A stretch of 64,000 nucleotides of DNA from Patescibacteria group bacterium (GTDB taxonomy: Bacteria; Patescibacteriota; Minisyncoccia; 2-02-FULL-40-12; GWA2-44-9), in NCBI GenBank assembly GCA_038064455.1, contig JBBTTB010000005.1:21983-85982 (forward strand), in the 5' to 3' direction. Of the stretch, positions 6,937-63,202 are shown piece by piece (position 1 is the first letter of the stretch; every line of letters starts with the position of its first letter). The translations under genes were made by a program, and so were the position numbers. The notes beneath the pieces were generated by a model. It was not told the origin of the DNA. It saw only the letters and a program-made list of their open reading frames with translations, and made no database searches.

Positions 6937-8874
6937 ATGGCTCGATGGTCGTTTTTTAAGCGTCGCAACAATGCATACGCCGTCTCTCTTGATGGCGATG
7001 ATTGGGTTGCTCCAGAAGAAACGCTTGTTGACGTGGGGAGTAGCCACGTTGATCTGGAGCGCCCAGTGGATACTCGTATTTTCGCTCTCGCACGAGGTGC
7101 GGTGTGGCTTGTCGCTCTCGCACTGGTACTTGCTTCCGGGGCTCTTGCGATACAACAACATGAAACGCTCTCTGCCGCTGCTGAGTCGAATCGCACAGTA
7201 CAGATCTCCGTGAGTCCTCCTCGCGGCGCCATTGTAGATCGCACAGGAGTTCCGCTTGTGAAAAATACCCCAAGTTTTCAAATTGCTATCGTCTCTCGCG
7301 AGCTTCCAGCGACCCCTGAAGAACGTGAGGCGCTCTTCACAACAGTCGCTTCTATTCTCAAAGAAGACCCTGCGGTGCTCGTGCCGCAACTTCTTGAACG
7401 CGCACATGCGCAGAGCGTCTTTTTTGCTGCGACGGGCGTGCCAAAAGAAGCAACGGTGCAATTCTCCCAACTTTTGGGAAATGGCGTACACGTGGTAACT
7501 ACAACGGATCGCGCATATCTCAATGGCGAGCAATTTTCAACAGTGCTGGGATATACGGGACGGGTATCGGTTACCGATCGAGAGCGCGACACATCCTATG
7601 CGTCGTCTGATCGTGTTGGTCGCGCGGGGATAGAGGCCCAATATGAGCAAGAGCTCCGTGGTTCGCACGGGAGTATCACATTTTCGCGAGGAGAAGAAAG
7701 TGTCCAAAAAGATCCCATTCCGGGACACACGGTGGTGCTTGAAATAGATGCAGATGCGCAGAAGGCACTCTATAATAGTTTATTTTCAGTCTTACGGGGC
7801 GCAGCCGTTTCTGGGGCTGCTGCAATTGTGCAAGATCCACAAACGGGCGCCGTGCTAGGCATGGTGAGCTTCCCATCATATGATAACAACATATTCGCGG
7901 ATGGTATTTCACAAGGAGAATACCAGCGCTTGTTCACGTCATCGCGCAAGCCACTCTTTAATCGCGTCATCGGCGGCACCTATAACCCTGGCTCAACCAT
8001 TAAGCCATTTATTGGCATGGCAGCAGTAGAAGAGAATATTATCCGCCCATCCGACAATATTTGGGAGTGTGTAAACATCACCATTCCTAACCCGAGCAAT
8101 CCATCACGCCCGTATGTCTTTGAAAACTGGAGACCAGAGCATGGGCCGTTTAATCTTGCGCGAGCGATCGCAACGTCGTGCAATATTTACTTCTTTACTG
8201 TTGGCGGTGGACGCGATGCATTTCAAGGGCTAGGCATTGAGCGCATAGCTTCGTATCTGCAGAGGGCATTTGCTGATAAGGTGCTGGGCATTGATCTTCC
8301 GGGTGAGGTCGCTGGCTTTGTACCAACGTCGGCGTGGAAACAAGAAAAGCGTGGTGAGCCATGGTACCAAGGTGATACGTATAACGTTTCCATCGGCCAA
8401 GGAGATCTTTCCGTCTCTCCACTATGGATTAATGCGTATGTGAGCGCCATTGCAAACGGAGGGACACTCTACCAGCCACGCGTTGCACAGCGTATCCAGT
8501 ATGGCGCCGGCACTCCAGATACCGTGTTCGCACCAACCGAGCTTGCGAAGATGCCATTCAGTAGCACAACGATCGCGGCCATGCAAAAAGCAATGCGTGA
8601 GACGGTCCTCACGGGTACGGCAAAAATACTCCAAAATCTTCCCGTCTCATCTGCCGCAAAAACAGGTACGGCGGAAGTGACGAAGCATGGAAAGATCAAC
8701 TCACTCTTCACGGCGTTCGCGCCAGCAGAAAATCCAAAGGTTGCTATTACGGTGTTGGTGGAAAGCTCAATCTACAGCGAAGGATATGCAAGCCGCACGG
8801 CCCACGCATTCTTGAAATGGTTCTTTACGCGCCCATCCCCGTCATCCCCAGCGGAACCCTTGCCATCTTTGTAA
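6937..8874 (+). CDS. mrdA: penicillin-binding protein 2 (peptidoglycan D,D-transpeptidase, elongasome)
   Basis: Transpeptidase motifs STIKPF (SxxK) and KTGTAE, an N-terminal TM anchor, and a position after mreD. The start is trimmed to the ATG at 6937. Confidence 0.8.
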   Translation: MARWSFFKRRNNAYAVSLDGDDWVAPEETLVDVGSSHVDLERPVDTRIFALARGAVWLVALALVLASGALAIQQHETLSAAAESNRTVQISVSPPRGAIVDRTGVPLVKNTPSFQIAIVSRELPATPEEREALFTTVASILKEDPAVLVPQLLERAHAQSVFFAATGVPKEATVQFSQLLGNGVHVVTTTDRAYLNGEQFSTVLGYTGRVSVTDRERDTSYASSDRVGRAGIEAQYEQELRGSHGSITFSRGEESVQKDPIPGHTVVLEIDADAQKALYNSLFSVLRGAAVSGAAAIVQDPQTGAVLGMVSFPSYDNNIFADGISQGEYQRLFTSSRKPLFNRVIGGTYNPGSTIKPFIGMAAVEENIIRPSDNIWECVNITIPNPSNPSRPYVFENWRPEHGPFNLARAIATSCNIYFFTVGGGRDAFQGLGIERIASYLQRAFADKVLGIDLPGEVAGFVPTSAWKQEKRGEPWYQGDTYNVSIGQGDLSVSPLWINAYVSAIANGGTLYQPRVAQRIQYGAGTPDTVFAPTELAKMPFSSTTIAAMQKAMRETVLTGTAKILQNLPVSSAAKTGTAEVTKHGKINSLFTAFAPAENPKVAITVLVESSIYSEGYASRTAHAFLKWFFTRPSPSSPAEPLPSL

Positions 8875-8927
8875 AAGGGGAGTAGTATAGACCAACAGAA
8901 AAGCACCGCCGAGAGGCGGTTTAGTCT

Positions 8928-9389
8928 ATGGATACACAATATTTCAGCAAAGAAGGATTGGAAAAACTCAAGCAAGAGCTTACCGAACGCACCGAAACAG
9001 TGCGATCTGAAATCGCGCACCGTATTCGCGAGGCAAAAGAGCAAGGTGACTTGAGCGAGAACGCAGAATACGCAGAAGCAAAAGAAGCTCAAGCAATCAA
9101 CGAAGGTCGCATTGAAGAGCTCAAAGCAATCCTCGAGAATGCTGTCATTATTGATGATGAGCGTAAAAAGGGCGGTATCGTCGCTGTCGGTGCTTCCGTA
9201 AAGGTGGAATCAAAGAGCGGCTCAAGTACTTATACTATCGTTGGCCCCGCGGAATCAGACCCCGCACAAGGCTTCATCTCAAATGAATCTCCTCTCGGTT
9301 CTGCATTCCTTGGCCGCAAAAAAGGAGACTCTATCGATATCAAAACGCCTCGCGGCCTTATCACCTACAAGATCGTAGACGTGAAGTAG
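8928..9389 (+). CDS. greA: transcription elongation factor GreA
   Basis: 153 aa with an N-terminal coiled-coil containing acidic DLSENAEY and a C-terminal FKBP-like domain. Confidence 0.85.
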   Translation: MDTQYFSKEGLEKLKQELTERTETVRSEIAHRIREAKEQGDLSENAEYAEAKEAQAINEGRIEELKAILENAVIIDDERKKGGIVAVGASVKVESKSGSSTYTIVGPAESDPAQGFISNESPLGSAFLGRKKGDSIDIKTPRGLITYKIVDVK

Positions 9390-9404
9390 GCCAGAGACGC
9401 AGAA

Positions 9405-9430
9405 GCCGCCCATCCGGGCGGTTTTTCGTT
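9405..9430 (+). terminator. rho-independent terminator after greA
   Basis: GCCGCCC-atcc-GGGCGG hairpin followed by TTTTTCGTT. Confidence 0.6.
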
Positions 9431-9463
9431 GCAATTCGGAAGTGAAATGATACTATATTCGAT

Positions 9464-10933
9464 ATGCCTTTGGACGATATTCGTGATGGTCGCGTAGCAA
9501 AGCGCGCGCATCTTCTCGCATCACAGCAAGACCCATATCCCGCACACACCTCCCGCACGCACACTATTCGTGCGGTGCTTGATTCTTTCGATTCTTTGAA
9601 TGCAGAAGCAGCACCGCTCGTACTTGCGGGGCGCGTGATGGCTCGTCGTGAACATGGCGGCGCAATGTTCCTTGATCTCATGGATGCAAGCGGCACGTTA
9701 CAGCTTCACGCAACGCGTGATGCGCTGGGTGACGCTGTCTATGCGCTCCTTACCGAGACACTCGATATCGGAGATATCATCGAAGCGTCGGGCACTGTGT
9801 TTGTTACCAAGCGTGGCGAGCGAACGCTCGAAGTGCGCGGTGCGCGCATGCTTACCAAAACACTCTTGCCGTTGCCAGAAAAGTGGCATGGCCTGCAAGA
9901 CGTCGAAGAGCGCTACCGCAAGCGCTACCTCGATATTTTATTAAACACCTCCGTGCGTGAAAAGATGATCACACGCTCGCGTATCGTACAAGCAATGCGG
10001 AGCTTCATGCAGACGCACGGGTTCCTTGAAGTGCAGACGCCAACGCTCCAGCCGCTCTATGGCGGTGCATCCGCGCGCCCGTTCAAGACGCACATGCACG
10101 CGTTAGATATAGACCTCTACTTGCGCATCGCTCCAGAGCTGTACTTAAAGCGCTTGCTGGTTGCGGGCTTTGAGCGCGTGTGTGAATTCACCACGAACTT
10201 CCGCAATGAGGGCATCGATCGAGACCACAACCCAGAATTTTCTGGCATGGAGTTTTATGCCGCGTTCCAAGATCTTGATTGGGCGATGACCTTTACCGAA
10301 GAGCTTATGGCGCACGTGTTGGAATCATTGCAATTAGGCACCGCCACAACTTACCAAGGCACAGAAGTGCACTGGATGCGTCCGTTCGTCCGCGCTACAT
10401 TCTTCGAGCTCCTCAAAGAGCACGCCGGCGTTTCATATCTTGAAGCTTCAGAAGACGATATGCGAGCCGCGGCGCAGAAACTTGGTGTCACCATAGAAAA
10501 GCACGTGACGAAGCCGGGCATTGCCGATGAGCTTTTCAAAAAAGTAGTACGTCCTAACCTCGTTGAACCCACGTTTGTTATCGAGTATCCGGTAGAGCTT
10601 CTCCCGCTCGCGAAGCGCATCCCAGAGCGCCCTGAAGTGGTTAGCGCTTTCCAATTCTATGCAGGCGGCCTCGAGCTTATTAAAGCATTCACCGAACTCA
10701 ATGACCCCATAGATCAACGTGAGCGCTTCGCAGGACAAGAAAATCAGCGCGCAAAGGGCGACGAAGAAGCACAGCGCATGGACGAAGATTTCATTCAGGC
10801 ATTAGAATATGGCATGCCACCAGCCGCCGGGTGGGGCATTGGCCTTGATCGTTTTGTCGCACTCCTTACCGACTCTCATTCACTGCGAGAAGTAATCCTT
10901 TTCCCGCTCATGAAGCCGCAAGAGAACGAATAA
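9464..10933 (+). CDS. lysS: lysine--tRNA ligase (class II)
   Basis: OB-fold N-terminal domain, FRNEGIDRDHNPEFSGMEFY (motif 2 region) and a C-terminal GWGIGLDR. Confidence 0.9.
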   Translation: MPLDDIRDGRVAKRAHLLASQQDPYPAHTSRTHTIRAVLDSFDSLNAEAAPLVLAGRVMARREHGGAMFLDLMDASGTLQLHATRDALGDAVYALLTETLDIGDIIEASGTVFVTKRGERTLEVRGARMLTKTLLPLPEKWHGLQDVEERYRKRYLDILLNTSVREKMITRSRIVQAMRSFMQTHGFLEVQTPTLQPLYGGASARPFKTHMHALDIDLYLRIAPELYLKRLLVAGFERVCEFTTNFRNEGIDRDHNPEFSGMEFYAAFQDLDWAMTFTEELMAHVLESLQLGTATTYQGTEVHWMRPFVRATFFELLKEHAGVSYLEASEDDMRAAAQKLGVTIEKHVTKPGIADELFKKVVRPNLVEPTFVIEYPVELLPLAKRIPERPEVVSAFQFYAGGLELIKAFTELNDPIDQRERFAGQENQRAKGDEEAQRMDEDFIQALEYGMPPAAGWGIGLDRFVALLTDSHSLREVILFPLMKPQENE

Positions 10934-13584: not shown

Positions 13585-15015
13585 CTACGGAAGTACGAGC
13601 ACGAGCGTGCCGTCAGAGATGCGCACCCTACTGTATTGCTCTGGAGAGAGATACAGAATGTTTTTGATCTGTTGCTGTTCTTCGGTGAACGTTTGCGTGA
13701 GGAAGCGGATCGGTGCGCTCTGGGCAGTAGTACGTGCAATAATGATCACCGGCCCGCCGTGTTCGCGGATGCGCTTGAGCATAGAGACATCATCAGCGCG
13801 ATAAAGCTCGCGGACATCAGGGTTTGTGCCCCAAATGACGTGCGCACGCACTGTTTCTGCAACGCCCATAGCGAGCACAAACGTGAGTGCAACCATAACC
13901 GCGGTCAAAGCTCCTTCCTGCACGTGCATGCTTCCGTGTGGCAAACGCACACTCAAATCATGAGGGTGCTTGGCGTGATACCAGTCAGCGAGGCGATCCA
14001 TGAACCACCACAGAGCTTGTCCTGCAAAGAGGAATACCACCGGCGCAATGCTCGCAAGGCGTATGGTTACGCGCAGATCATCGATGAGGGCTCCTCCCAC
14101 AAGGCCACAGAAGAACCATGCAACAAGAAGCGTGTGGGTCGGCGATACGTGGCTGCTTCCGTTGAGCTCCTTAAGGATCTTAATGATATTGCGCAAGAGC
14201 CCAGTGAGCGCGAGCGCAGCTACGGGCCAGAACACGAGCGAGCTTCCTACGATGCCATTCTGCCATTGCGTAATGCTAGGCATAAAAAGCCGCGCGAGCG
14301 CCGTGCGAACGCCGGCGCTCCAATCTGCAACAAGCGCGGTGCCTGCAGATGCGGGCAAAATGTTTTGTGCGCCAAAATATGAAACGAGCAAGAGCGCAAC
14401 AATACCAAAGAGAATAAATCCATTCCGCAGTGAATCATGCGCGCGTTGTGCACGAGCATCCTGCGTGTGTACACGCGTCATGTGGAAATACACCGCCGCG
14501 GCGATCGCGCCAGCAAGGAGCATGGGGCGTGCAAGGGTGTGTGTAGAGAGCGCCGCCGCCCAGATAATAGCCGCCGCCGCAAAGGTACCATGCGTGTGAG
14601 TAGCGAGGGCCATCCACAGCGCATAGAATCCCCACGTCGCAAAGAAGGCGAGGCTTGCTTCAGGGAGTGCGGTGCGTGAAATGAGGAAATACCAGAACGA
14701 ACCCGCGTAGAGAATGCTGGAAAGCGAAGCGATCTCCCACGAAAACAGTCTGCGTGCGAGGAAATAGAGGCCGGCAACCGACCCAATGCCAAAGAGAAGT
14801 GATGGAATGCGCGCTGCCCATGGGGTTGGGCCAAAAATGTGGATAGATACGTTTTGGAGTACGCCGTACACGCCGCTTTCTGGTTCTGCGAGAACGCGAA
14901 TAGCGTGTTGTGCTTCGCTACCAGAGATGCCAGCAGGAATACCACCGATATTAAACAACGAAACAACGAGCGTACCGAGGATAAGTGCGCCAAGCGCGAT
15001 TCGATGTAGATGCAT
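13585..15015 (-). CDS. GT-C fold membrane glycosyltransferase (ArnT/PMT, GT39/GT83-like)
   Basis: About 476 aa with roughly 11-13 TM helices and an N-terminal MHLHRIALGALILG...GIPAGISGSE loop typical of ArnT/PMT-like enzymes. Start chosen at the ATG at 15015; the listed 606-aa ORF carries a 130-aa low-complexity extension that overlaps the divergent gene. Confidence 0.6.
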   Translation of the reverse strand: MHLHRIALGALILGTLVVSLFNIGGIPAGISGSEAQHAIRVLAEPESGVYGVLQNVSIHIFGPTPWAARIPSLLFGIGSVAGLYFLARRLFSWEIASLSSILYAGSFWYFLISRTALPEASLAFFATWGFYALWMALATHTHGTFAAAAIIWAAALSTHTLARPMLLAGAIAAAVYFHMTRVHTQDARAQRAHDSLRNGFILFGIVALLLVSYFGAQNILPASAGTALVADWSAGVRTALARLFMPSITQWQNGIVGSSLVFWPVAALALTGLLRNIIKILKELNGSSHVSPTHTLLVAWFFCGLVGGALIDDLRVTIRLASIAPVVFLFAGQALWWFMDRLADWYHAKHPHDLSVRLPHGSMHVQEGALTAVMVALTFVLAMGVAETVRAHVIWGTNPDVRELYRADDVSMLKRIREHGGPVIIIARTTAQSAPIRFLTQTFTEEQQQIKNILYLSPEQYSRVRISDGTLVLVLP

Positions 15016-15089
15016 AATGGTAAAATATAGCACATTATGCGCAGGAGATGGGCTTGGACAAGTGGAAAGTGTGATATACTTTCCACTGT

Positions 15090-15485
15090 ATGAGTGAAGA
15101 AACACACGTCCAAATTGAGCAAGACATTCGTCGCCTTGAAAGTGAGCTCGCAAAGAAGCGTGCCACGCGCGATAGCGCCGTAGAGCAGAATGCAGGGGAG
15201 CAACATGATGACCAAGCGGCACTTCGTGAGGTAGTGCGTGAACACATTGTAGGTGCTCCAGCGCCAGCACCCGTTGAAGGGCACGGGCCCGCGGTTCCAT
15301 TAAACGATGATCAGGTTTCGCAGGTGCAAGCATTGGTACAAACAGCTCTTTCCGACGGTCTTGATGCCGCAGTGGTAGCCGCGCGCGCGACAAACAACCC
15401 TGCACTCATCGATGCTCTGCATGACGCGCTCGCGGACGTGTACTGGAAAGAAATGCTCCAGCGCGGTTTTGTAAAAGCACTCTAA
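15090..15485 (+). CDS. hypothetical protein (coiled-coil N-terminus, Ala/Pro-rich)
   Basis: 131 aa, divergent from the glycosyltransferase and directly upstream of the VirD4-like gene. Confidence 0.4.
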   Translation: MSEETHVQIEQDIRRLESELAKKRATRDSAVEQNAGEQHDDQAALREVVREHIVGAPAPAPVEGHGPAVPLNDDQVSQVQALVQTALSDGLDAAVVAARATNNPALIDALHDALADVYWKEMLQRGFVKAL

Positions 15486-15491
15486 TTCTTC

Positions 15492-17921
15492 GTGTCAGGT
15501 ATTTTTCTTATTGCTTACGGTGCGGTGTTTATACTCACGGCGGCTGCCGCGCTCGTATTTTTTGGCTCCCTCCGTGCGCGAGGACGTATTATGCGCGGCA
15601 TGGATATGTCGCTCTATCGCATCACGTTGCCACGTGAGGTCCAGCCAGCGCAAAAACAAGATCGCGAGCTGATCGCAGTGATGGAGCAACTCTTTGCTTC
15701 TATCACGAGTATCCACGCGCGCGGATGGAATAAGTTTATATACGGCGAGCCATACCTCGCGCTCGAGATGGCAGTGCACCACATGGGTGAAGACATTTTC
15801 TTTTATTGTGCCGTTCCTAAAAACTACGAAGCGGTATTCGTGAAGCAGGTACACGGCCTGTATCCAACTGCAGAAGTAGTGCAGTCTCCCGAATACACTA
15901 TTTTTCATCCGACGGGCGCATTTGCCGGATCATATCTCTCGCAAAAGAAAGAGGCCATTCTCCCATTCCGTACCTATGCGCGCCTTGAAAGCGATCCCCT
16001 TGGTGGCATTATTTCTGCGCTCTCAAAACTAGAAAAAGAAGGTGAGGGCGCGGCAATCCAGGTACTCATTCGTCCATCGCATCAAGAGAGCGTTCGTTCT
16101 CTCGCACAACGCGTCGCGCAGGAGATGCAGAAAGGCAATCCATTCAAAGAAGCTTTTTCACGCGCAACATCCAGCAAGAAAAAAGAACCAGAAGAATCGG
16201 CAAAACCAGCTACTGCATTTGAAGACGACGTCATTAAAGCGCTCCAGAGCAAAGCATCACGACCACTCTTTGATACCAACGTGCGCATTCTCGTGTCTGC
16301 CGAGACTCAAGATCGCGCCGACGCCATGCTGAACGACATTCAGTCGTCGTTTGTGCAGTTGGGGAGCCCAGATTTAAATGAACTGACGCCCGTTGGTTTG
16401 CGCGCTAAAGGGAAAGACAAACTTGCCTACGAATATGCATTCCGCATGTTCAACGATTCGTACACGATGCAGCTTTCCAGCGAAGAGCTTGCAAGCATCT
16501 ACCATTTTCCACTCCAACATAGTCAATCACCTCGCGTTGCGTTCTCGCATGTAAAAGCGGCAGAGCCACCCACAAATCTTCCAGAGCAAGGCATTATTCT
16601 GGGCGCGAATGTGTTCCGGGGTCAAGAACGCCCCGTGCGTATGACAGATTCAGATCGTCGTCGCCACCTCTACGTGGTAGGACAGACGGGCACTGGCAAA
16701 ACAACGCTCATGAAGCACATGATCGCGCAAGATATTCGTGCCGGGAAAGGCGTATGCATTATTGATCCCCACGGTGATTTTGCCGAATATGCGCTTTCAG
16801 TGATTCCGAAAGAACGCGTCGATGACGTTGTCTATTTCAATCCGGGAGACATTGATCGTCCGTTGGGCTTAAACATTCTTGAATTCGATCCCGCAAAGCC
16901 AGAACAAAAAACATTCCTTGCAAACGAGCTGTTGGCGATTATTAAATCGCTGTATAAATCACTTCCTGAAGCGTTCGGGCCGATGTTTGAGCAATACTTT
17001 AAGAACGCCATTTTACTCGTGATGGATGTCTACGAGCGCGCAGTGCGCGAGAAGGGTTCCAAAGAAGGATTAGAGCACCTCATTCCTACGATGGCGGACA
17101 TTCCGCGCATTCTCGTTGATGAAGACTATCGCCGCGAAAAGCTTGCGCTCGAAGATAACCCGCTCGTGAAATCATTCTGGGAACTGGAGGCAGAAAAAGC
17201 AGGTGGCGATGCGGCATTGGCCAACATGGCGCCCTACATCAACTCAAAGCTCAATCCATTTTTAGCGAATGACTATTTACGTCCCATTGTGGGGCAGAAG
17301 GTGAGCGCGTTTGATTTTCGTGCCATCATGGATGGAAAGAAGATTCTTATTGTAAATCTTTCCAAAGGCCGCATTGGCGAAATGAACGCGAACTTGTTGG
17401 GCATGATGATTGTCTCGCGCCTGCTTATGGCCGCACTTGGTCGCGTTGACCTGCCCGAAGAACAGCGAAACGATTTTTACCTCTACGTTGATGAGTTCCA
17501 AAACGTTACCACAGACAGTATTGCTACGATTCTTTCAGAAGCACGAAAATATCGCCTTGATCTCATCATCGCGCACCAGTACATCAAACAGATCCCCGAA
17601 GCAATCCGCGATGCCGTGTTTGGTAACGTCGGTTCGCAGATTGCGTTTCGCATTGGCTCCGATGACGCCGAAGCGTTGAAGAATAAATTTGAACCCGTGT
17701 TCACGCCTGCGGATCTTTCCAGCATCGACAACTTCAACGCGCATGTGCGTATGCTCATCGATGGGCAAAATGCGCGCCCTTTTTCCATTCAAACGATTCG
17801 TGAACCTGCGGGGGATCCTCGCTTAGTGAGCGCACTTGCAGAACTCTCTCGGTTGACGCATGGCCGTCCGCGTGCATTGATAGAGGAAGAATTGAAGAGC
17901 GGTTATCGAACCAATGCCTAG
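15492..17921 (+). CDS. VirD4/TraG/TrwB-like type IV coupling-protein ATPase with 2 N-terminal TM helices
   Basis: N-terminal TM pair, Walker A GQTGTGKT, Walker B LYVDEFQNV and IIAHQYIKQ, 809 aa. This architecture is that of T4SS coupling proteins. Confidence 0.55.
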   Translation: MSGIFLIAYGAVFILTAAAALVFFGSLRARGRIMRGMDMSLYRITLPREVQPAQKQDRELIAVMEQLFASITSIHARGWNKFIYGEPYLALEMAVHHMGEDIFFYCAVPKNYEAVFVKQVHGLYPTAEVVQSPEYTIFHPTGAFAGSYLSQKKEAILPFRTYARLESDPLGGIISALSKLEKEGEGAAIQVLIRPSHQESVRSLAQRVAQEMQKGNPFKEAFSRATSSKKKEPEESAKPATAFEDDVIKALQSKASRPLFDTNVRILVSAETQDRADAMLNDIQSSFVQLGSPDLNELTPVGLRAKGKDKLAYEYAFRMFNDSYTMQLSSEELASIYHFPLQHSQSPRVAFSHVKAAEPPTNLPEQGIILGANVFRGQERPVRMTDSDRRRHLYVVGQTGTGKTTLMKHMIAQDIRAGKGVCIIDPHGDFAEYALSVIPKERVDDVVYFNPGDIDRPLGLNILEFDPAKPEQKTFLANELLAIIKSLYKSLPEAFGPMFEQYFKNAILLVMDVYERAVREKGSKEGLEHLIPTMADIPRILVDEDYRREKLALEDNPLVKSFWELEAEKAGGDAALANMAPYINSKLNPFLANDYLRPIVGQKVSAFDFRAIMDGKKILIVNLSKGRIGEMNANLLGMMIVSRLLMAALGRVDLPEEQRNDFYLYVDEFQNVTTDSIATILSEARKYRLDLIIAHQYIKQIPEAIRDAVFGNVGSQIAFRIGSDDAEALKNKFEPVFTPADLSSIDNFNAHVRMLIDGQNARPFSIQTIREPAGDPRLVSALAELSRLTHGRPRALIEEELKSGYRTNA

Positions 17922-18525
17922 CTTATCTCGCCTCGACTATCTCGGCGCACTTATAACGGGTGCTACGACCGGCTGTATCGCATGGCAGATTTTTTCGTGG
18001 TTTGATATACCGCTTTATCTTGGGTTTTCATGGGCGTGGCTGGTTGTGCTCGTCCCCGTGCTTTGGCTACTCGGTGTGATCAAAGGCTACCTTTTAGGGA
18101 AATATGTTGCCCCCGTCTTCGCTGATTTTGGAAAATTTGTTGCCGTAGGTTCTACGAACGCCGCAGTCGATTTCGGCATTATGTATTTTCTCATTGCGCA
18201 GACTGGCATTGCCTCTGGCGGCTGGTTCTCTCTGTTTAAAACAGCTTCATTTATAGTTGCATTAGGCCACAGTTACACCTGGAACGCACTGTGGGTGTTT
18301 TCTAACCACGGCCGTGGTTTAAACCGCCGTGACTTTATTCGCTTTACTACCGTGGCGCTGGTTGCCCTCGCGGTGAACGTCGGCATAGCTTCATTCGTGG
18401 TGAATGGCATAGGACCTATGTTTGACCTCTCTCTGCGCGCCTGGGCCGGCGTAGGAGCTGTGGCGGGCTCTCTCCTCGCGCTCTTAGTGAGCTTCACCGG
18501 TTTTCGAAAGGTAGTCTTTGCGTGA
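17914..18525 (+). CDS. GtrA-family membrane protein (polysaccharide-synthesis associated) with extra N-terminal TM pair
   Basis: GtrA-like motifs FGKFVAVGSTNAAVDFGIMYFL and SYTWNALWVF. Its start overlaps the VirD4-like stop (ATGCCTAG). Confidence 0.5.
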   Translation: MPSLSRLDYLGALITGATTGCIAWQIFSWFDIPLYLGFSWAWLVVLVPVLWLLGVIKGYLLGKYVAPVFADFGKFVAVGSTNAAVDFGIMYFLIAQTGIASGGWFSLFKTASFIVALGHSYTWNALWVFSNHGRGLNRRDFIRFTTVALVALAVNVGIASFVVNGIGPMFDLSLRAWAGVGAVAGSLLALLVSFTGFRKVVFA

Positions 18526-30009: not shown

Positions 30010-30282
30010 ATGCTTATAGCCCCCTAAGTGTTTATTTAGGGTCTCAATTTATCTCATTTTCCCAGATCAATGAGCCTCATTCTGCCTCTGGCTAAAGACT
30101 TAACCCTCTAGTATGCATTCTATAAATGCGATCACTAGAGTGGGTACCGCAACTGCCGCGCTCGAATCCCGAGAGGGAAACTAACCCTATCCTACGCGCC
30201 CTATGTACCCGTTGCACGGGGCGTCTGTTTTTTAGTGGTATATAATGAATGTAACGTTTCATGATAGGCACTATTGATGTAT

Positions 30283-30323
30283 GGGTTAACTTGTGTTAAC
30301 CTTATAGGAGCGATAGGGTTAAC
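30283..30323 (+). promoter_or_regulatory. three GGTTAAC-containing repeats (two as inverted pair) upstream of HTH gene
   Basis: GGGTTAAC-ttgt-GTTAACC followed by GGGTTAAC, a likely operator for the adjacent HTH protein. Confidence 0.4.
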
Positions 30324-30330
30324 GAAACAT

Positions 30331-30612
30331 ATGGAGCAAAACACTACAAAAAAGACATTCCTCTCTGTCCCAGAATTGGCCAAAATGCTTGGCATTAGCC
30401 GTATTGCGGCTTTTCGTAAGGTTAAAAAGGGACACATTCCAGCCCACAAAATTGGGCGTATGTACGTTATTTCCATGGAAGATGCGCTCGCGTTTGTGAA
30501 CGAGGGGCAGTCTGACGTGCTCACGGAACCTAAAAAAGACGAAATTAAAAAGGCAGTTGCTCGAGTTGTCCAAGAATACGGCGAAACACTCAAGCTTTTA
30601 GGGAAAGAATAA
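30331..30612 (+). CDS. helix-turn-helix (excisionase/MerR-type HTH_17) DNA-binding protein, putative antitoxin/regulator
   Basis: VPELAKMLGISRIAAFRKVKKGHIPAHKIGRMYVI matches excisionase-family HTH. The start is uncertain, between 30274 and 30331. The stop lies 1 nt before the Doc gene. Confidence 0.5.
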   Translation: MEQNTTKKTFLSVPELAKMLGISRIAAFRKVKKGHIPAHKIGRMYVISMEDALAFVNEGQSDVLTEPKKDEIKKAVARVVQEYGETLKLLGKE

Positions 30613-30613
30613 T

Positions 30614-31039
30614 ATGAAGCTGAAACGGCTCACCCTCACTGATATAGAGTACGTCGCACATAGACTTGCACAAGAAACGATGTCGTGGCGTGAACCTATC
30701 CCTGACTTCGGCACACGATACTCAAACGCGCTTGAGCGGTGCATTGATGCGCCGTTCCAATCCTTTGGTGGTAAGCAGTTATATCCCGGCCTTGTGAGGA
30801 AGGCTTCGATACTATTTTATTTGATGATCAAAAATCATCCGTTTCAGAACGGAAATAAAAGATTAGCGATGACGACGCTCTTCTTTTTTCTCTTTCGGAA
30901 TAAGAAGTGGATGAAAGTTGATACACAAGAACTGTATAATTTTGCAGTCTGGGTTGCGAAAAGCAATGCGAAGGTGAGGGCCGACACCATACGAGCGGTA
31001 GAAACATTTCTCGGTAGCTATATAGTTGATATAGAATAA
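30614..31039 (+). CDS. Doc (death-on-curing)/Fic-fold toxin family protein
   Basis: HPFQNGNKRLAMT matches the Doc variant of the Fic motif (HxFx[DN]GNKR). 141 aa. Confidence 0.6.
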   Translation: MKLKRLTLTDIEYVAHRLAQETMSWREPIPDFGTRYSNALERCIDAPFQSFGGKQLYPGLVRKASILFYLMIKNHPFQNGNKRLAMTTLFFFLFRNKKWMKVDTQELYNFAVWVAKSNAKVRADTIRAVETFLGSYIVDIE

Positions 31040-55982: not shown

Positions 55983-56444
55983 TTACTTACAGATCACTTC
56001 ACAGTTTGGAGAGGTGCTCGCTTGAGGTAGCGCGGTGGCACTGGGTGAAGCGCTTGTGGTGGGTGAAGGTTGCTCTGGCGAAGACGAGCTAAAGCGATCT
56101 AGTAATATCTGCGTTGGAGATCGTTCGGATATGGACTCGCTTAGCGATTGTATAACGGTGTCTGAATTGTTGAATTGTTCCACCGCTTGCTGAAGCGTTG
56201 TGCGTTCTGCGGCGCTTATGTTTTTTGAGTTGAGAAGAAGCGGAGCTTGTTCGGTAAAAAAAGTGCGGAGAGCTTCTTGGTGTGGCGTAAGGTTCTCTAT
56301 GAGTATCTCGTTCTGTGTTTTTGGGATAATGGCTTCTATAAGCTGGCTTCGCAGTGAAGAGATCTGATCAGGAAAAGGAAGCTGTCCTAATGAAAGCGAG
56401 AAGATCCCCACAAGGGCTCCTACGAGGAGGATGAGATATATCAT
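55983..56444 (-). CDS. membrane-anchored Ser/Pro-rich hypothetical protein
   Basis: 153 aa with an N-terminal TM. It overlaps the upstream gene by 4 nt (operon). Confidence 0.4.
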   Translation of the reverse strand: MIYLILLVGALVGIFSLSLGQLPFPDQISSLRSQLIEAIIPKTQNEILIENLTPHQEALRTFFTEQAPLLLNSKNISAAERTTLQQAVEQFNNSDTVIQSLSESISERSPTQILLDRFSSSSPEQPSPTTSASPSATALPQASTSPNCEVICK

Positions 56445-57211
56445 GATCTTGGTGCCGGCGTGGGAAGTGGTGGAAGATTCTGCTGGAAATTTACGAGATC
56501 AGGATTGATTGTGTTTAAGATAGCGTATGCAGCGAGAAGAAAGAGGGCTCCCACAAAGACGTCTTGGATATCACTACGCGCCTTGGTGACTGCGTTCGGA
56601 TTATCCGCGTTCATGAGAATAGTAAATCCACTCTTAACGATTATAAAGAACATAATTGCGCCGAGTAACAATATTGCCCACTCATATACTTGAGCGATCA
56701 TGCCACCAAGCGTTTTGTCCGTGGTGACCGGAGGGGGAGGTGAACCGCTTGGTGACGGTGTCTCGGCTAGCGCGGGCATACTGAAAAGGAGCAGCACAGA
56801 CTCAGAGATTCTTTCGCTTATATTAATTCGTGCCACTGCTTGCAGTGCCATGCTCCCCGTACTTTCATTGTATGCATCTGGCGCAAGAGCTTCCCACATA
56901 TCGCGGGTAAAAGTAAGGTGCGCCGTGGCGCTTTGACCAGTTGCATCAAATGTTGCTTGAAGGGTTGTGGCTTTACGTATACGATCAGCGCCCTTATAGA
57001 TATCCACATACACAATTATATTTGGACACTCACTTGCGGAAATGTTTATGGGCACAGATTGCCCTACTGGTACTGTGCCTGTAACACCCCAACGTATGCC
57101 GGGACTACTGGTGAGGGTACATACGGCGTAAGCTTGCTGGGGCGTGAAAAGAAAAGCGATAGAACTTGCAAAAACTACCAAAAAGACGTGCAGTGTGCGC
57201 ATATACTTCAT
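56441..57211 (-). CDS. secreted protein with C-terminal double-helix hydrophobic hairpin (VirB2/TrbC pilin-like?)
   Basis: Signal peptide, a beta-rich domain, a Pro-rich linker, then two about 20-aa hydrophobic helices separated by NADNPNAVTKARSD. Confidence 0.35.
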   Translation of the reverse strand: MKYMRTLHVFLVVFASSIAFLFTPQQAYAVCTLTSSPGIRWGVTGTVPVGQSVPINISASECPNIIVYVDIYKGADRIRKATTLQATFDATGQSATAHLTFTRDMWEALAPDAYNESTGSMALQAVARINISERISESVLLLFSMPALAETPSPSGSPPPPVTTDKTLGGMIAQVYEWAILLLGAIMFFIIVKSGFTILMNADNPNAVTKARSDIQDVFVGALFLLAAYAILNTINPDLVNFQQNLPPLPTPAPRS

Positions 57212-57782: not shown

Positions 57783-59102
57783 GTGAAACCATTTTCTTTT
57801 TTCTCTGTTGGCGTGCTCATTATATCCGCGTATGTAGGAGGATTTTTTGTCGAACTAGCACATGCGGCGGTTACTGATGAGATCGCAGAGCGGACCCGTC
57901 AAATCGAGGAGATCCAACGCCAAATTAATGAGCTTCAGGCGCAAGTCGATGCGAATAAAGGTAAGTCGGCGACATTGCAAGGAGAAATTAGTCGTCTCAA
58001 CGGTCAGATTAACCAACTAAACCTTGAGATTCGCAGTCTGAATCTCTCTATTGAGCGCACCACTATTGATATCCGTGGTACTGCGGACAATATCTCCGAA
58101 GCAGAAACAGAGCTTCAGAAACATAAAGGCGCTTTAAGTAAATATGTGCAATACGCATATGAGCTTGACCGTTTTTCACTCACTGAAGTGCTTTTGAATA
58201 ATGATACACTCTCTGATTTCTTTAACGACCTTAATAATGTACAAACAACGCAAGATAGTCTAAAGTCAGCCATCGTAAGTATTCGCGAGTTAAAAATTGG
58301 TCTTGAAGAAAAGAAGATGTCGCTTGAAGAAAAGAAAGAAGAGCTTGAGCGTCTCAAGAGTATCCAAGAAATAGAAAAGCGGATGATTGATACGACGAAG
58401 GCTCAAAAAGATCGTGTGCTACGTGAAACCAAGGGGCAAGAATCAAAATATCAAGAGCTGGTAAAGCAGAAAAAACTTGATCTTGAACGGATCCGTGATC
58501 AGATCACGTACCTGCAGCAAAACGGTGTAAGCGCAGAAGATGCAGTGAAGTTTGGACAATTGGCGGCGCGTCGGGCTGGTGTTCGTCCCGCATATCTTAT
58601 TGCAGTGCTAGAGGTAGAATCAGGTCTTGGGCGCAATGTGGGGCGCTGTAATCGCGCCGATGATCCTCCATCGAAGAAGTGGGATGTCATTATGCATACG
58701 CGAGACCATAAGCCATTCATTGTAGTTACAGAACAGCTGGGACTTGACCGTAATAGTACTCCTGTCTCTTGCCCCCAAATCGTGAACGGTAGACAACTCG
58801 GATGGGGCGGCGCAATGGGCCCCGCGCAGTTCATTCCCTCTACATGGGTTTCATATGCGGAGGAAGTTGCTCGTCTTGTAGGTCGATCTCCGGCGAACCC
58901 GTGGAATATTGAAGATGCATTTATGGCGGCAGCAATTAAGCTGGCTCGCGGCGGAGCATCCGCGCAAACAAGAGCGAGTGAAATCGCGGCATCGAAGGCA
59001 TACTATAGCGGCAACTCAAAATGTTCCTCGAGCTCATGTAACTCATACGCAAACGCTATCCAAAAGAAAGCTGCTACCATCGAAGAGAACTTGGGGGAAT
59101 AA
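57783..59102 (+). CDS. coiled-coil + lytic transglycosylase (GH23/SLT-like) domain protein
   Basis: Long N-terminal coiled-coil, then LIAVLEVESGLG (catalytic ES) and GGAMGPAQFIPSTW (GLMQ-type motif). Confidence 0.5.
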   Translation: MKPFSFFSVGVLIISAYVGGFFVELAHAAVTDEIAERTRQIEEIQRQINELQAQVDANKGKSATLQGEISRLNGQINQLNLEIRSLNLSIERTTIDIRGTADNISEAETELQKHKGALSKYVQYAYELDRFSLTEVLLNNDTLSDFFNDLNNVQTTQDSLKSAIVSIRELKIGLEEKKMSLEEKKEELERLKSIQEIEKRMIDTTKAQKDRVLRETKGQESKYQELVKQKKLDLERIRDQITYLQQNGVSAEDAVKFGQLAARRAGVRPAYLIAVLEVESGLGRNVGRCNRADDPPSKKWDVIMHTRDHKPFIVVTEQLGLDRNSTPVSCPQIVNGRQLGWGGAMGPAQFIPSTWVSYAEEVARLVGRSPANPWNIEDAFMAAAIKLARGGASAQTRASEIAASKAYYSGNSKCSSSSCNSYANAIQKKAATIEENLGE

Positions 59103-61306: not shown

Positions 61307-63202
61307 TTATTTATGCTTCATTTCGTATACGCCATTCCATGTTTCAGGTGGATGCTCTTTAAAATAAGCGATCCGTTCTGCAAGAAGCTGTGTGGGGCCA
61401 TCGTGTGGCGCGCGCGAGAGAGCGCGTTGTGCGTATAGAGAGGCACGATCCCATGCGCCTTGTGCGTATGCATTACGTAGCTCAATAAAGTCTGCCGCAA
61501 TAGACTCCCACAAGCTCACGCGTCCAGAAGGGATTACTTCATAAATAGTAACACCCTCCGTTTTTCCTTTCACTTGCACGCAATCAATGTTGCGCATGGG
61601 TATGTGTGTAGCTTCGTTTCCGAGGGCGAGTTTAGTTTTTTCAGTAATGAGTATGCGTACCCCATACATCTTTGTAAGGCTTTCAAGTCGTGAGGCGAGA
61701 TTCACCGCATCTCCCATGACCGTGTAGTCGAAGCGCTGCTCCGAACCCATATTTCCGACGGTAACATCTCCTGTGTTAATACCAATGCCAATATCAATAT
61801 GTGGATCGCCACGCGTCTCACTTTCTGTGTTGAATACGTCGAGCGCTGTCGTCATCTCGAGCGCAGATATCACAGCGTCATGTGCGTGTGTTTGTGAAGG
61901 AAGGGGAGCGCCCCAGAATGCCATAATTGCGTCGCCAATATATTTATCAATCACTCCGCGACGCCCTAAAATGATAGTGGTCATACGCGTGAGGTAGCGG
62001 TTCAGAAATGCGGTCAACTGTTCTGGAGTGAGTGTTTCTGAAAGAGTAGTAAATCCACGTACGTCAGAAAAAAGAATAGAAAGCGTTGCGCGAGATCCGC
62101 CTAAGCGTAGCATGCTCGGGTTTTGTACAATTTGTTGGATGACGGCAGGTGCAAGATATCGCGAAAAGCTTTCTTGAATGAATTTCTTTTCCTGGTGTGT
62201 CGCGCGATAACGCATAATAACTCCATAACTTGCGCCTCCAATAAGCGCGACGACCGGATAGAGTATGGGAAGCGTTATTGCACGGGACATGAGGAACGAT
62301 GCTACGCCCACATATGCAAATGTGGTGCCGGCAATGCTTGGGATGCTGATGTGCATGGGCGAATAGCGCATGACAAGAGATCCTATGCAGTACCCTACGA
62401 TGATAAAGATGGGAACCCAATCACCAACGCTTCGCTCATGAGTATTATTGAGGAATTGTTCAATGGCATGCGCCTGTATGGTGACGCCACTCATCACCCC
62501 AAATGGTGTTGAGTGAGTGTCTTGAAGATCTGCGGCAGTGGCGCCGATGAGTACAATATTATTCGTGAATAGCGACGTATCCACAACGCCCTCAAGCACA
62601 TCAATAGCGCGCACATGGGGGAACGATTGCTCGCCACCAGCAAAGAAAATGCGGCGCAAGTCTTGCGTGTGGCGTGGGAGTGGTGCACCAGCAAGTCGCG
62701 CAACGAGTGCGCTAAAACTTTCTGTCTCGCCTCGATACATGCGCACGCGTCGTGCGACGCCGTCTGCATCAACCGCAATGTTTGCAAACCCTTTCTCTGC
62801 GCGAGCTACTGCTGAAATGAGCGGTGCAAGAGCCCCTTCTCGTGTTACATCACTTGTCACTACAATAGAAGCAGATGTGCGAGCTATCGCTTGTGCCAGC
62901 ATCGCATCATCGTGCGCGCCAAGGCGCGACGGTTCTTTAAAATTTACATCTATACCAATAATATCCGCGGCACCAATGCGCTGAATGAGCTGTGCAAATG
63001 AGGCTCGTGGCCATGGCCACTGTCCGTGAGCGCGAAGACTTGCGTCATCAATGTCAACAATAACAATACGATCGCGCACGAGACGTGTTTGAAGGAGTGC
63101 GTCTTGGAGGCGCGCATCCCAGAGGGTGCCAAGATCAATAAACCATGCGCCGAGCGTGATGGCGATAAGAGCAATAAGGCCAAGGATAAAACGCGCGATC
63201 AT
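61307..63202 (-). CDS. CHASE2 sensor domain-containing class III adenylate/guanylate cyclase
   Basis: N-terminal TM plus a CHASE2-like periplasmic region and 3 TM helices. The cyclase core has ILFSDVRGFTTLSE and KYIGDAIMAFWGAP. Confidence 0.75.
   Translation of the reverse strand: MIARFILGLIALIAITLGAWFIDLGTLWDARLQDALLQTRLVRDRIVIVDIDDASLRAHGQWPWPRASFAQLIQRIGAADIIGIDVNFKEPSRLGAHDDAMLAQAIARTSASIVVTSDVTREGALAPLISAVARAEKGFANIAVDADGVARRVRMYRGETESFSALVARLAGAPLPRHTQDLRRIFFAGGEQSFPHVRAIDVLEGVVDTSLFTNNIVLIGATAADLQDTHSTPFGVMSGVTIQAHAIEQFLNNTHERSVGDWVPIFIIVGYCIGSLVMRYSPMHISIPSIAGTTFAYVGVASFLMSRAITLPILYPVVALIGGASYGVIMRYRATHQEKKFIQESFSRYLAPAVIQQIVQNPSMLRLGGSRATLSILFSDVRGFTTLSETLTPEQLTAFLNRYLTRMTTIILGRRGVIDKYIGDAIMAFWGAPLPSQTHAHDAVISALEMTTALDVFNTESETRGDPHIDIGIGINTGDVTVGNMGSEQRFDYTVMGDAVNLASRLESLTKMYGVRILITEKTKLALGNEATHIPMRNIDCVQVKGKTEGVTIYEVIPSGRVSLWESIAADFIELRNAYAQGAWDRASLYAQRALSRAPHDGPTQLLAERIAYFKEHPPETWNGVYEMKHK

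What the first reader, a model, noticed from the sequence alone, without database searches (positions are those of the whole stretch)
15090..18525. Stand-alone VirD4/TraG-like coupling ATPase fused in an operon with a GtrA-like protein, next to a GT-C glycosyltransferase
An 809-aa protein has two N-terminal TM helices, GQTGTGKT, VDEFQN and AHQYIKQ motifs. This is the T4SS coupling-protein (TrwB/VirD4) architecture. It sits in the chromosome core between a divergent ArnT/PMT-like glycosyltransferase and dnaX, with no other T4SS genes adjacent. Its stop overlaps the start of a GtrA-family membrane protein (ATGCCTAG). GtrA proteins normally accompany lipid-linked sugar transferases. Taken together this looks like a glycan or DNA/protein translocation module. 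Orphan T4SS-like components have been reported in episymbiotic CPR bacteria.
Basis: partly seen in the sequence, partly recalled or inferred. Interest (0 to 1): 0.55.

Follow-up and report, generated by a model that had tools for sequence, protein, structure and literature searches.

The report
Chromosomal coupling-ATPase with VirB4-like N-domain
The 809-residue gene is a conjugation-type "coupling" ATPase that has become a highly conserved core chromosomal gene of Paceibacteria (CPR bacteria). It carries a VirB4-like N-terminal domain and has a small dedicated partner protein. Its link to the neighbouring GtrA and glycosyltransferase genes looks like lineage-specific gene order, not a shared machine.

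Summary
The ORFs, motifs and the 8-nt stop/start overlap with a GtrA gene are real. The protein has one N-terminal TM helix, not two.

The C-terminal half is a type IV coupling protein (T4CP) ATPase. hhalign to TrwB gives 96% probability over 258 columns. VirB4 and FtsK match only at the P-loop.

Full-length homologues sit beside relaxase-like and VirB4/VirB3 or Tcp-type genes on Embleya and Bacillus plasmids. This is therefore a monoderm T4CP subtype.

In Paceibacteria it is vertically inherited, syntenic, and better conserved than SerRS or DnaX. It is never next to T4SS or relaxase genes. One family member is already listed as an orphan "T4CP" in a 2025 survey, in a genome that has its own VirB4 cluster.

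The small upstream protein is the only constant partner: 52/56 loci, and fused in 18 others that lack the TM helix. GtrA (14/51 adjacent) and the GT-C gene (17/45) are neighbours in only some lineages. A glycan-translocation module is not supported.

Role: probably the substrate-recruiting motor of the dispersed patescibacterial T4SS. A T4SS-independent role is possible.

The parts
15090..15485 (+). 131-aa soluble helical protein, the dedicated partner of the ATPase. It has an N-terminal helix, a variable Pro-rich linker and a conserved C-terminal motif NPxLxDAFHDxLvDxLY.
   Evidence: It lies directly upstream on the same strand in 52/56 non-fused loci. A profile built only from free-standing copies matches residues ~1-130 of 18 long (908-959 aa) ATPases at E 1e-9 to 1e-15, which shows gene fusion. 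It has no Pfam or PDB relative and is not TrwA-like. Its stop is 6 nt before the ATPase start.
15492..17921 (+). 809-aa T4CP-type ATPase with a VirB4-like N-domain (whole gene).
   Evidence: ORF and public gene calls agree. There are >5800 homologues, and the top 120 are 55-94% identical at ~800 aa. The AF2 model has mean pLDDT 83.
15492..15581 (+). Single N-terminal transmembrane helix (res ~1-30), followed by an Arg-rich stretch on the cytoplasmic side.
   Evidence: A Kyte-Doolittle scan finds one segment, 1-30. The AF2 model shows a helix at 3-37. 60/62 non-fused homologues have one such helix and 17/18 fused ones have none.
15597..16589 (+). DUF8128 (PF26449) domain, res ~36-366, with the fold of the VirB4 N-terminal domain.
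16590..17921 (+). T4CP-type nucleotide-binding domain, res ~367-809. Walker A is at 16680-16703, Walker B (VDEFQN) at 17487-17504, AHQYIKQ at 17571-17591, and an all-helical insertion at res ~471-600 (16902-17291).
   Evidence: hhalign against TrwB gives prob 96.2%, E 2.7e-9, 258 columns, and spans the TrwB all-alpha-domain region. A PDB profile search ranks TrwB, then DotL, then HerA. Foldseek gives TrwB TM 0.65 and Cag-beta. Pfam hits are DUF87, TrwB_AAD_bind and TraG-D_C at 22.4 bits. TrwK and the FtsK motor align only at the P-loop.
17914..18525 (+). GtrA-family membrane protein, 203 aa. It is translationally overlapped with the ATPase here, but it is a lineage-specific neighbour and not part of the conserved module.
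   Evidence: Pfam GtrA_DPMS_TM scores 56 bits. The overlap was verified. It is adjacent in 14/51 non-fused loci, within 2.5 kb in 20/51, and in 0/17 fused loci. In 13/21 loci it is followed by dnaX.
13585..15015 (-). Divergent GT-C (PMT_2) glycosyltransferase, 476 aa as called publicly. It is a recurrent neighbour but not universal.
   Evidence: Pfam PMT_2 scores 43 bits and PMT 27 bits. The public gene call is 476 aa. It is present upstream on the opposite strand in 17/45 non-fused and 0/16 fused loci.

Best explanation
Genes 15090-15485 and 15492-17921 form a two-gene module.

Components:
- A small cytoplasmic helical protein.
- A membrane-tethered ATPase, presumably hexameric, of the type IV coupling protein (T4CP, VirD4/TrwB) lineage.

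Domain order of the ATPase:
- one TM helix;
- a VirB4-N-terminal-domain-like domain (DUF8128);
- a T4CP nucleotide-binding domain with a helical insertion at the position of the TrwB all-alpha domain.

The same full-length architecture serves as the coupling protein in monoderm conjugation clusters, where it sits next to relaxase-like and VirB4/VirB3 or Tcp-type genes. In Paceibacteria the gene has been domesticated. It is single-copy in each locus, vertically inherited, embedded among housekeeping genes, unlinked from T4SS and relaxase genes, and under very strong purifying selection. It has also acquired the small partner, which in some orders is fused to it in place of the TM helix.

Inferred mechanism (not shown):
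- The ATPase docks at the membrane through its TM helix, or through the partner domain in the fused forms.
- It uses ATP hydrolysis to recruit a macromolecular substrate (DNA or protein) and feed it to the chromosomally dispersed patescibacterial T4SS (VirB4/TrsD/VirB3/VirB6/VirB2-like genes elsewhere in the genome).
- The small protein acts as adaptor or regulator, as CagZ or TrwA do for other T4CPs.

GtrA and the GT-C enzyme are most likely a separate polyprenyl-phosphate-sugar glycosylation pair. They share the operon or promoter region in this lineage only.
For: Identity of the ATPase domain:
- hhalign to TrwB: 96%, 258 columns.
- PDB profile hits: TrwB, then DotL.
- TrwB phmmer hits 77 family members, whereas TrwK and FtsK hit none.
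- Family member KKU80937.1 is scored as T4CP (t4cp1 profile, 89% coverage) in Table S3 of PMC12102498.

N-domain:

Conjugative relatives with the same full-length architecture:
- Embleya plasmid protein: 721 columns, E 1.7e-47. Its N-domain alone gives E 4.8e-9. It lies between a VirB4-like ATPase and a Replic_Relax gene, with PrgI/VirB3 and an NlpC/P60+SLT hydrolase nearby.
- B. subtilis plasmid protein: 660 columns, E 6e-35. It is followed by Replic_Relax and TcpD/TcpE/ATPase genes.

Core-gene status:
- 518+ GTDB species hits, 41-61% identity across many Paceibacteria orders.
- Conserved synteny.
- Identity 41-62% versus 35-55% for DnaX and 37-43% for SerRS in the same genome pairs.
- Base composition is like that of the rest of the window.

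Partner:
- Upstream in 52/56 loci and fused in 18.
- TM helix and fusion are mutually exclusive.

A T4SS is available in the same genomes:
- GCA_000996605.1 has VirB4+TrsD+VirB3 elsewhere.
- The window has a T4SS_pilin-like gene and an SLT gene at 56.4-59.1 kb.
Against: - No T4SS, relaxase or VirB4-like gene lies within 8 kb in any of 85 loci, so coupling to the T4SS is inferred from homology only.
- The 2025 survey reports T4CP homologues in more genomes (2,918) than VirB4 (2,417). It also reports that the t4cp homologue of Ca. S. epibionticum is not essential while other T4SS genes are. Both points favour an independent role. It is not known whether that Saccharibacteria gene belongs to the DUF8128 subfamily.
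- Fused forms lack any TM helix, so membrane anchoring is not universal.
- The same genome can hold a second T4CP homologue that could be the real T4SS partner.
- No structure of the small protein or of the complex was obtained.
Confidence: 0.6

Rival explanations
1. Exapted, T4SS-independent core machine. The T4CP-derived ATPase and its partner now do an essential housekeeping job. Candidates are moving DNA or another polymer during division or segregation, or during uptake. They would work without the VirB4-type T4SS.
For: - The gene is better conserved than SerRS or DnaX in the same genomes.
- It always lies among division, envelope, replication or translation genes: ftsQ-like/dnaX, or secY-adk-map/ndk.
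- It is never near T4SS genes.
- The literature reports T4CP homologues in more genomes than VirB4, a non-essential t4cp in S. epibionticum, and raises exaptation itself.
- Fused forms have no TM helix.
Against: - There is no positive evidence for any specific alternative substrate.
- The closest full-length relatives are coupling proteins in conjugation clusters.
- Gene order in these tiny genomes is conserved for many unrelated genes, so a housekeeping neighbourhood says little.
- Genomes with the gene do have a T4SS.
Confidence: 0.3
2. A canonical stand-alone VirD4/TraG coupling protein works with GtrA and the GT-C glycosyltransferase as one glycan (or DNA/protein) translocation module.
For: - There is an 8-nt stop/start overlap with GtrA in this genome.
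- The GT-C - small ORF - ATPase - GtrA arrangement recurs in relatives down to ~44% identity.
- GT-C remains adjacent in some loci whose wider context differs: L041, L043, L047, L049, L060, L070.
Against: - GtrA is adjacent in only 14/51 and GT-C in 17/45 non-fused loci. Both are absent from all 16-17 fused-type loci, where the neighbours are secY-adk-map and ndk.
- GtrA is followed by dnaX within 1.5 kb in 13/21 loci, including loci where other genes separate it from the ATPase: L013, L017, L033, L037.
- GtrA and GT-C diverge far faster than the ATPase: 24-51% and 20-29% identity versus 41-62%.
- The plasmid homologues have relaxase and T4SS neighbours, not glycosylation genes.
- To my knowledge there is no precedent for a T4CP moving glycans.
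Confidence: 0.06
3. It is an FtsK/SpoIIIE- or HerA-type DNA translocase, or a HerA/mad8-like defence ATPase, mislabelled as T4SS-related.
For: - Pfam DUF87 (HerA central domain) is the top Pfam hit at 48 bits.
- PADLOC mad8 scores 62 bits, with several weaker HerA models.
- Foldseek lists HerA at E 1e-8.
Against: - The DUF87 hit covers only the P-loop region, res 390-483.
- NCBIfam HerA scores 14.9 bits against a cut-off of 970.
- hhalign to the E. coli FtsK motor aligns 42 columns around the P-loop only, prob 32%.
- FtsK phmmer finds no family member.
- TrwB aligns across the whole domain.
- There are no NurA, SIR2 or MADS partners nearby, and the gene is a universal, syntenic core gene rather than a variable island gene.
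Confidence: 0.03

Closest known systems
DUF8128-type coupling proteins of monoderm conjugative plasmids. Examples: Embleya sp. NBC_00896 plasmid WP_331738717.1 (812 aa) and B. subtilis NRS6116_2 WP_144625398.1 (913 aa). As far as I found, neither has been characterised experimentally.
   Same: They are full-length homologues. Embleya has one TM helix, a DUF8128/VirB4-NTD-like domain and the T4CP ATPase (721 columns, E 1.7e-47). Bacillus aligns over 660 columns (E 6e-35).
   Different: They are plasmid-borne. They sit beside Replic_Relax relaxase-like genes and VirB4/VirB3(PrgI)/hydrolase or TcpD/TcpE genes. No small upstream partner is present. Identity to the window protein is only 25-27%.
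TrwB (R388), VirD4, Cag-beta and DotL: canonical type IV coupling proteins.
   Same: The nucleotide-binding domain, with a helical insertion at the all-alpha-domain position, is homologous at sequence level and at fold level (TM 0.65 to TrwB). Some T4CPs also have small regulatory partners, such as CagZ (PDB 8dol, listed) and TrwA (established knowledge).
   Different: TrwB has two N-terminal TM helices and no VirB4-like N-domain. Canonical T4CPs are encoded with a relaxase and T4SS genes. The window protein falls below all NCBIfam T4CP cut-offs.
VirB4 (TrwK of R388; TIGR00929).
   Different: The C-terminal ATPase matches VirB4 only at the P-loop by sequence. The N-domains show no sequence similarity. 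A genome carrying a family member has its own canonical VirB4 with TrsD and VirB3 elsewhere.
Orphan T4CP homologues of Patescibacteria (Quinonero-Coronel et al. 2025, PMC12102498).
   Same: It is the same set of genes. Family member KKU80937.1 is listed there as T4CP, not near virB4. The authors note 5,713 such homologues, only 148 of them near virB4, and raise possible exaptation.
   Different: The terms GtrA and DUF87 do not occur in that paper's main text. The passages I read do not describe the VirB4-like N-domain, the small partner or its fusion, the housekeeping synteny, or the plasmid-borne full-length relatives. I did not read the paper in full.

Membership tests
Type IV coupling protein (VirD4/TrwB/TraG/TraD) | Nucleotide-binding domain homologous to TrwB across Walker A to Walker B and beyond. 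| tested here: met
   hhalign prob 96.2%, E 2.7e-9, 258 columns. TrwB is the best PDB sequence hit. TrwB phmmer hits 77 family members. A family member matches the CONJScan t4cp1 profile at 89% coverage in PMC12102498 Table S3.
Type IV coupling protein (VirD4/TrwB/TraG/TraD) | All-alpha domain inserted in the nucleotide-binding domain. | tested here: inconclusive
   The AF2 model has a helical insertion at res ~471-600. It aligns, weakly, with TrwB 187-297. Pfam TrwB_AAD_bind matches only res 386-432.
Type IV coupling protein (VirD4/TrwB/TraG/TraD) | N-terminal membrane domain with two TM helices. | tested here: not met
   There is one hydrophobic helix, 1-30. TrwB shows two by the same scan. 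Fused homologues have none.
Type IV coupling protein (VirD4/TrwB/TraG/TraD) | Curated model thresholds (Pfam T4SS-DNA_transf / TraG-D_C; NCBIfam VirD4/TraD models). | tested here: inconclusive
   TraG-D_C scores 22.4 bits against a cut-off of 22. T4SS-DNA_transf is not hit by the window protein but is on record for many homologues. All NCBIfam T4CP models are far below cut-off; the best full-domain match is conju_CD1115 at 33.7 against 250.
Type IV coupling protein (VirD4/TrwB/TraG/TraD) | Encoded with a relaxase and/or T4SS mating-pair-formation genes. | tested here: not met
   None is found in the window near the gene or within 8 kb in 85 loci. This feature is met for the plasmid homologues.
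VirB4 (TIGR00929 / CagE_TrbE_VirB) | VirB4-type N-terminal domain fold. | tested here: met
   [not shown]
VirB4 (TIGR00929 / CagE_TrbE_VirB) | VirB4-type C-terminal ATPase sequence signature. | tested here: not met
   TIGR00929 scores 28.7 bits against a cut-off of 643. hhalign to TrwK aligns 33 P-loop columns, prob 11%. TrwK phmmer finds no family member.
FtsK/SpoIIIE | Motor domain homology beyond the P-loop. | tested here: not met
   hhalign to the E. coli FtsK motor aligns 42 columns, prob 32%. There is no phmmer hit and no FtsK chain among the 50 best rows listed by Foldseek.
HerA | HerA equivalog model, with a NurA or other partner. | tested here: not met
   NF040819 scores 14.9 bits against a cut-off of 970. 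The DUF87 hit is limited to res 390-483. No nuclease partner is present in the neighbourhoods.
GtrA family (downstream gene 17914-18525) | GtrA_DPMS_TM domain above the gathering score. | tested here: met
   56 bits against a cut-off of 26.1, res 74-202.
GT-C / PMT_2 glycosyltransferase (13585-15015, minus strand) | PMT_2 domain above the gathering score. | tested here: met
   43.3 bits against a cut-off of 26.1.
MADS defence system (mad8) | mad8-like ATPase together with the other MADS genes in a variable island. | tested here: not met
   The mad8 model scores 62 bits on the ATPase domain. The gene is a syntenic core gene with housekeeping neighbours and no other defence genes.

The most novel reading that the evidence does not exclude
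The DUF8128 ATPase and its partner may be a T4SS-independent core machine of Paceibacteria, possibly essential. It would be a domesticated coupling protein that now moves DNA or another macromolecule for division, segregation or host-derived uptake. Its architecture (VirB4-like N-domain joined to a T4CP motor) may be a surviving intermediate between VirB4 and the canonical coupling proteins.
Probability: 0.3. Interest if true: 0.75.

Novelty: new variant of a known kind. Interest (0 to 1): 0.45.

Why it matters
- CPR/Patescibacteria depend on other cells, and in the one species tested so far their T4SS is essential. What the many orphan T4CP homologues do is an open question raised in 2025.
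- This work shows that the Paceibacteria orphan is a defined subfamily. It has a VirB4-like N-domain and a conserved partner that is sometimes fused to it. Its full-length relatives are coupling proteins in Gram-positive conjugation clusters.
- That provides a concrete two-protein target for structure prediction, interaction tests and depletion experiments.
- The VirB4-NTD plus T4CP-motor layout also bears on how the two T4SS ATPase families diverged.
- The proposed glycan-translocation link is removed.

Tried and rejected
- Fold search against afdb50 was not available.
- A literature search for 'DUF8128' found nothing.
- A search for FtsK absence in Patescibacteria was uninformative.
- The small protein has no Pfam family and no PDB sequence relative. 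It shows no similarity to TrwA, the small protein encoded upstream of trwB in R388.
- Sequence-level comparison of DUF8128 with the TrwK N-domain found nothing. Homology there rests on fold only.
- Promoter and terminator scans were at background level.
- The first neighbourhood profile for the small protein drifted onto the ATPase because of the fused forms. I rebuilt it from free-standing copies only.
- A regex-based TM census failed and was replaced by a simple hydropathy window.
- I considered and rejected a defence-system reading (mad8, HerA) and an FtsK-like identity; see rival explanations.
- I did not build a formal phylogeny because no curated reference set was at hand.


Full report
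**1. Observation**

The region holds three tightly packed genes on the + strand:
- a 131-aa ORF (15090-15485);
- an 809-aa ORF (15492-17921, GTG start, 6 nt after the first);
- a 203-aa ORF (17914-18525) whose ATG overlaps the ATPase stop by 8 nt, ATGCCTAG.

dnaX follows 26 nt later. A PMT_2/GT-C glycosyltransferase is transcribed divergently upstream; it is 476 aa as called in public assemblies. Public gene calls on the same contig give identical proteins. That contig is a 91.6-kb Hainich groundwater metagenome contig.

Two points of the observation fail:
- There is one N-terminal hydrophobic helix, not two.

The surrounding ~40 kb is housekeeping: RNase J, Lon, murG, holB, frr, proS, mreBCD, pbp2, greA, an aaRS gene, serS, ftsQ-like, then the locus, then dnaX. 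Base composition is unremarkable.

**2. What the ATPase is**

*Profile hits.*
- Pfam gives DUF87, TrwB_AAD_bind and TraG-D_C. The first two cover little more than the P-loop region. TraG-D_C is just at threshold.
- NCBIfam gives only sub-threshold hits. The one that spans the whole domain is the VirD4-like CD1115 family.

*Profile comparisons.*
- A profile of 30 homologues finds TrwB and then DotL as the best solved relatives.
- hhalign aligns 258 columns with TrwB (prob 96%, E 2.7e-9). This includes the segment that is TrwB's all-alpha domain.
- VirB4/TrwK and the E. coli FtsK motor align only around the P-loop.
- Reciprocally, TrwB alone detects 77 family members. TrwK and FtsK detect none.

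The C-terminal half (res ~367-809) is therefore a T4CP-type motor, not FtsK or HerA.

**3. The N-terminal domain**

Residues ~36-366 are Pfam DUF8128 (PF26449; precomputed annotation). The literature library holds no paper that mentions it.
- The full-length AF2 model is good (pLDDT 83). Its best Foldseek matches are full-length TrwK/VirB4 chains.
- All 14 Foldseek hits with E<=1e-3 are TrwK chains.
- No other P-loop ATPase appears among the listed matches, so the match is to the VirB4 N-terminal domain and not to its ATPase domain.
- No sequence similarity to the TrwK N-domain is detectable.

The protein therefore combines a VirB4-like N-domain with a T4CP-like motor behind a single TM helix.

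**4. Relatives outside CPR**

tblastn of the motor domain against plasmids finds 313 records. Two were examined in full.
- An 812-aa Embleya (Streptomycetaceae) plasmid protein aligns with the family profile over 721 columns, E 1.7e-47. Its N-terminal region alone aligns at prob 96%, E 4.8e-9, and it has one TM helix. It lies between a VirB4-like ATPase (P-loop_TraG, AAA_10, TraC_F_IV) and a Replic_Relax gene. A PrgI/VirB3 gene lies upstream and an NlpC/P60+SLT hydrolase downstream.
- A 913-aa B. subtilis plasmid protein aligns over 660 columns, E 6e-35. It is followed by Replic_Relax and then TcpD, TcpE and a large ATPase.

The N-domain also hits haloarchaeal and Streptomyces plasmids by tblastn.

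The architecture is thus that of a coupling-protein subtype used by monoderm conjugation systems. This fits the published finding that patescibacterial VirB4 nests within the monoderm MPF-FATA class.

**5. Status in Paceibacteria**

- More than 5,800 homologues were found; the best 120 are 55-94% identical and ~800 aa.
- The N-domain alone finds 1,424 representative clusters. Full-length members are 790-930 aa.
- In GTDB species genomes at least 518 loci encode it. The 80 fetched span Yanofsky-, Moran-, Sung-, Lipton-, Giovannoni-, Wolfe-, Nomura-, Zambryski-, Taylor- and Komeili-bacteria at 41-61% identity.
- In the same genome pairs it is better conserved (41-62%) than DnaX (35-55%) or SerRS (37-43%).
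- No relaxase-like, PrgI-like or VirB4-like gene lies in the window or within 8 kb in any of the 85 loci.

It is a vertically inherited core gene, not a mobile remnant.

**6. Link to the literature**

Quinonero-Coronel et al. 2025 report 5,713 VirD4-type T4CP homologues in 2,918 Patescibacteria genomes, only 148 of them near virB4. They note that the t4cp homologue of Ca. S. epibionticum is dispensable while other T4SS genes are essential, and that exaptation cannot be excluded.

Their Table S3 lists KKU80937.1 as 'T4CP, t4cp1, 89% coverage, not near VirB4'. That protein is the family member in locus L076. The same genome has a canonical VirB4-TrsD-VirB3 cluster elsewhere and a second T4CP homologue.

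The existence of the orphan is therefore already on record. The terms GtrA and DUF87 are absent from the paper's main text. The passages I read do not mention the architecture or the partner.

**7. The partner protein**

- The 131-aa ORF has homologues directly upstream in 52 of 56 non-fused loci with enough flank.
- A profile built only from 57 free-standing copies matches the first ~130 residues of 18 longer ATPases (908-959 aa) at E 1e-9 to 1e-15. It does not hit the window ATPase, which served as a control.
- These fused forms lack the TM helix (17/18), whereas 60/62 non-fused forms have it.
- The conserved part is a C-terminal helical segment, NPxLxDAFHDxLvDxLY.
- It has no Pfam or PDB relative and is not TrwA-like.

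Gene fusion is strong evidence that the two proteins act together. The mutually exclusive TM helix suggests that the partner domain sits on the cytoplasmic side at the N-terminus of the VirB4-like domain.

**8. GtrA and GT-C**

Counts below exclude the window's own contigs.
- GtrA is adjacent (<=100 nt) in 14/51 non-fused loci and within 2.5 kb in 20/51.
- GT-C lies divergently upstream in 17/45 non-fused loci.
- Neither is present in the 16-17 fused-type loci. There the gene lies in a secY-adk-map / ndk / RNase J context.
- GtrA is followed by dnaX in 13/21 cases, including loci where other genes separate it from the ATPase.
- These 80 loci are the closest relatives, so the fractions are upper bounds for the family.
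- GT-C does persist next to the module in several loci whose wider context differs, so some regulatory coupling through the shared divergent promoter region cannot be excluded.

The data do not support one machine. The conjugative homologues have no glycosylation neighbours.

**9. Mechanism**

Shown:
- identity of the domains;
- conservation of catalytic motifs;
- the partner fusion;
- core-gene status;
- conjugative context of the full-length relatives.

Inferred:
- a membrane-docked hexameric motor recruits and pushes a macromolecular substrate into the dispersed chromosomal T4SS;
- the small protein acts as adaptor or regulator.

The main rival is a T4SS-independent, exapted role. It is favoured by the extreme conservation, the housekeeping context and the published essentiality data. 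I put the T4SS-coupled role only slightly ahead.

**10. Verdict**

The gene is a domesticated monoderm-type coupling ATPase with a VirB4-like N-domain and a new partner, which makes it a new variant of a known kind. Interest is moderate.

Noticed in passing
window 56441-57211 (-) and 57783-59102 (+): A 256-aa protein matches Pfam T4SS_pilin over the full profile at 24 bits, below the 26.6-bit cut-off. Next to it is a coiled-coil protein with an SLT_2 lytic transglycosylase domain at 33.9 bits. Together they look like a VirB2/VirB1-like pair, 39 kb from the ATPase, with no VirB4 or VirB6 in the window.
   Followed up: partly
L046, L053, L062, L075 (upstream of the small ORF + ATPase): Two or three tandem type IV pilin-like genes (N_methyl motif plus Laminin_G_3/ConA-like lectin domain) lie directly upstream of the module in several more distant Paceibacteria.
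   Followed up: no
window 13585-15405 (-): The GT-C ORF can be read as 606 aa, but public gene calls start at 15015 (476 aa). The extra ~130 codons overlap the small partner ORF on the opposite strand and are probably not translated.
   Followed up: partly
[not shown]
   Followed up: no
window ~30277-31039 (+): An HTH_17 gene is followed immediately by a small Fic-domain gene. The pair resembles a toxin-antitoxin or regulatory pair.
   Followed up: no
window 61307-63202 (-) and the gene starting at 63209 (-): A CHASE2-guanylate/adenylate cyclase gene lies next to a FecR-domain gene and a VTT-domain gene.
   Followed up: no
L037 (Giovannonibacteria) 8001-10406: The homologue is annotated in NCBI as two proteins (480 and 425 aa) but is called as one 802-aa protein by JGI/ENA. 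L077 is likewise split. These are likely frameshifts or annotation differences.
   Followed up: no
L088 (Sulfitobacter plasmid) and L094 (Bradyrhizobium plasmid): The closest non-CPR relatives of the motor domain (32-35% identity) are not in T4SS clusters. One is a 395-aa motor-only protein beside transposases. The other is a 708-aa protein with a different N-terminal region, flanked by CHAT/TPR genes.
   Followed up: partly
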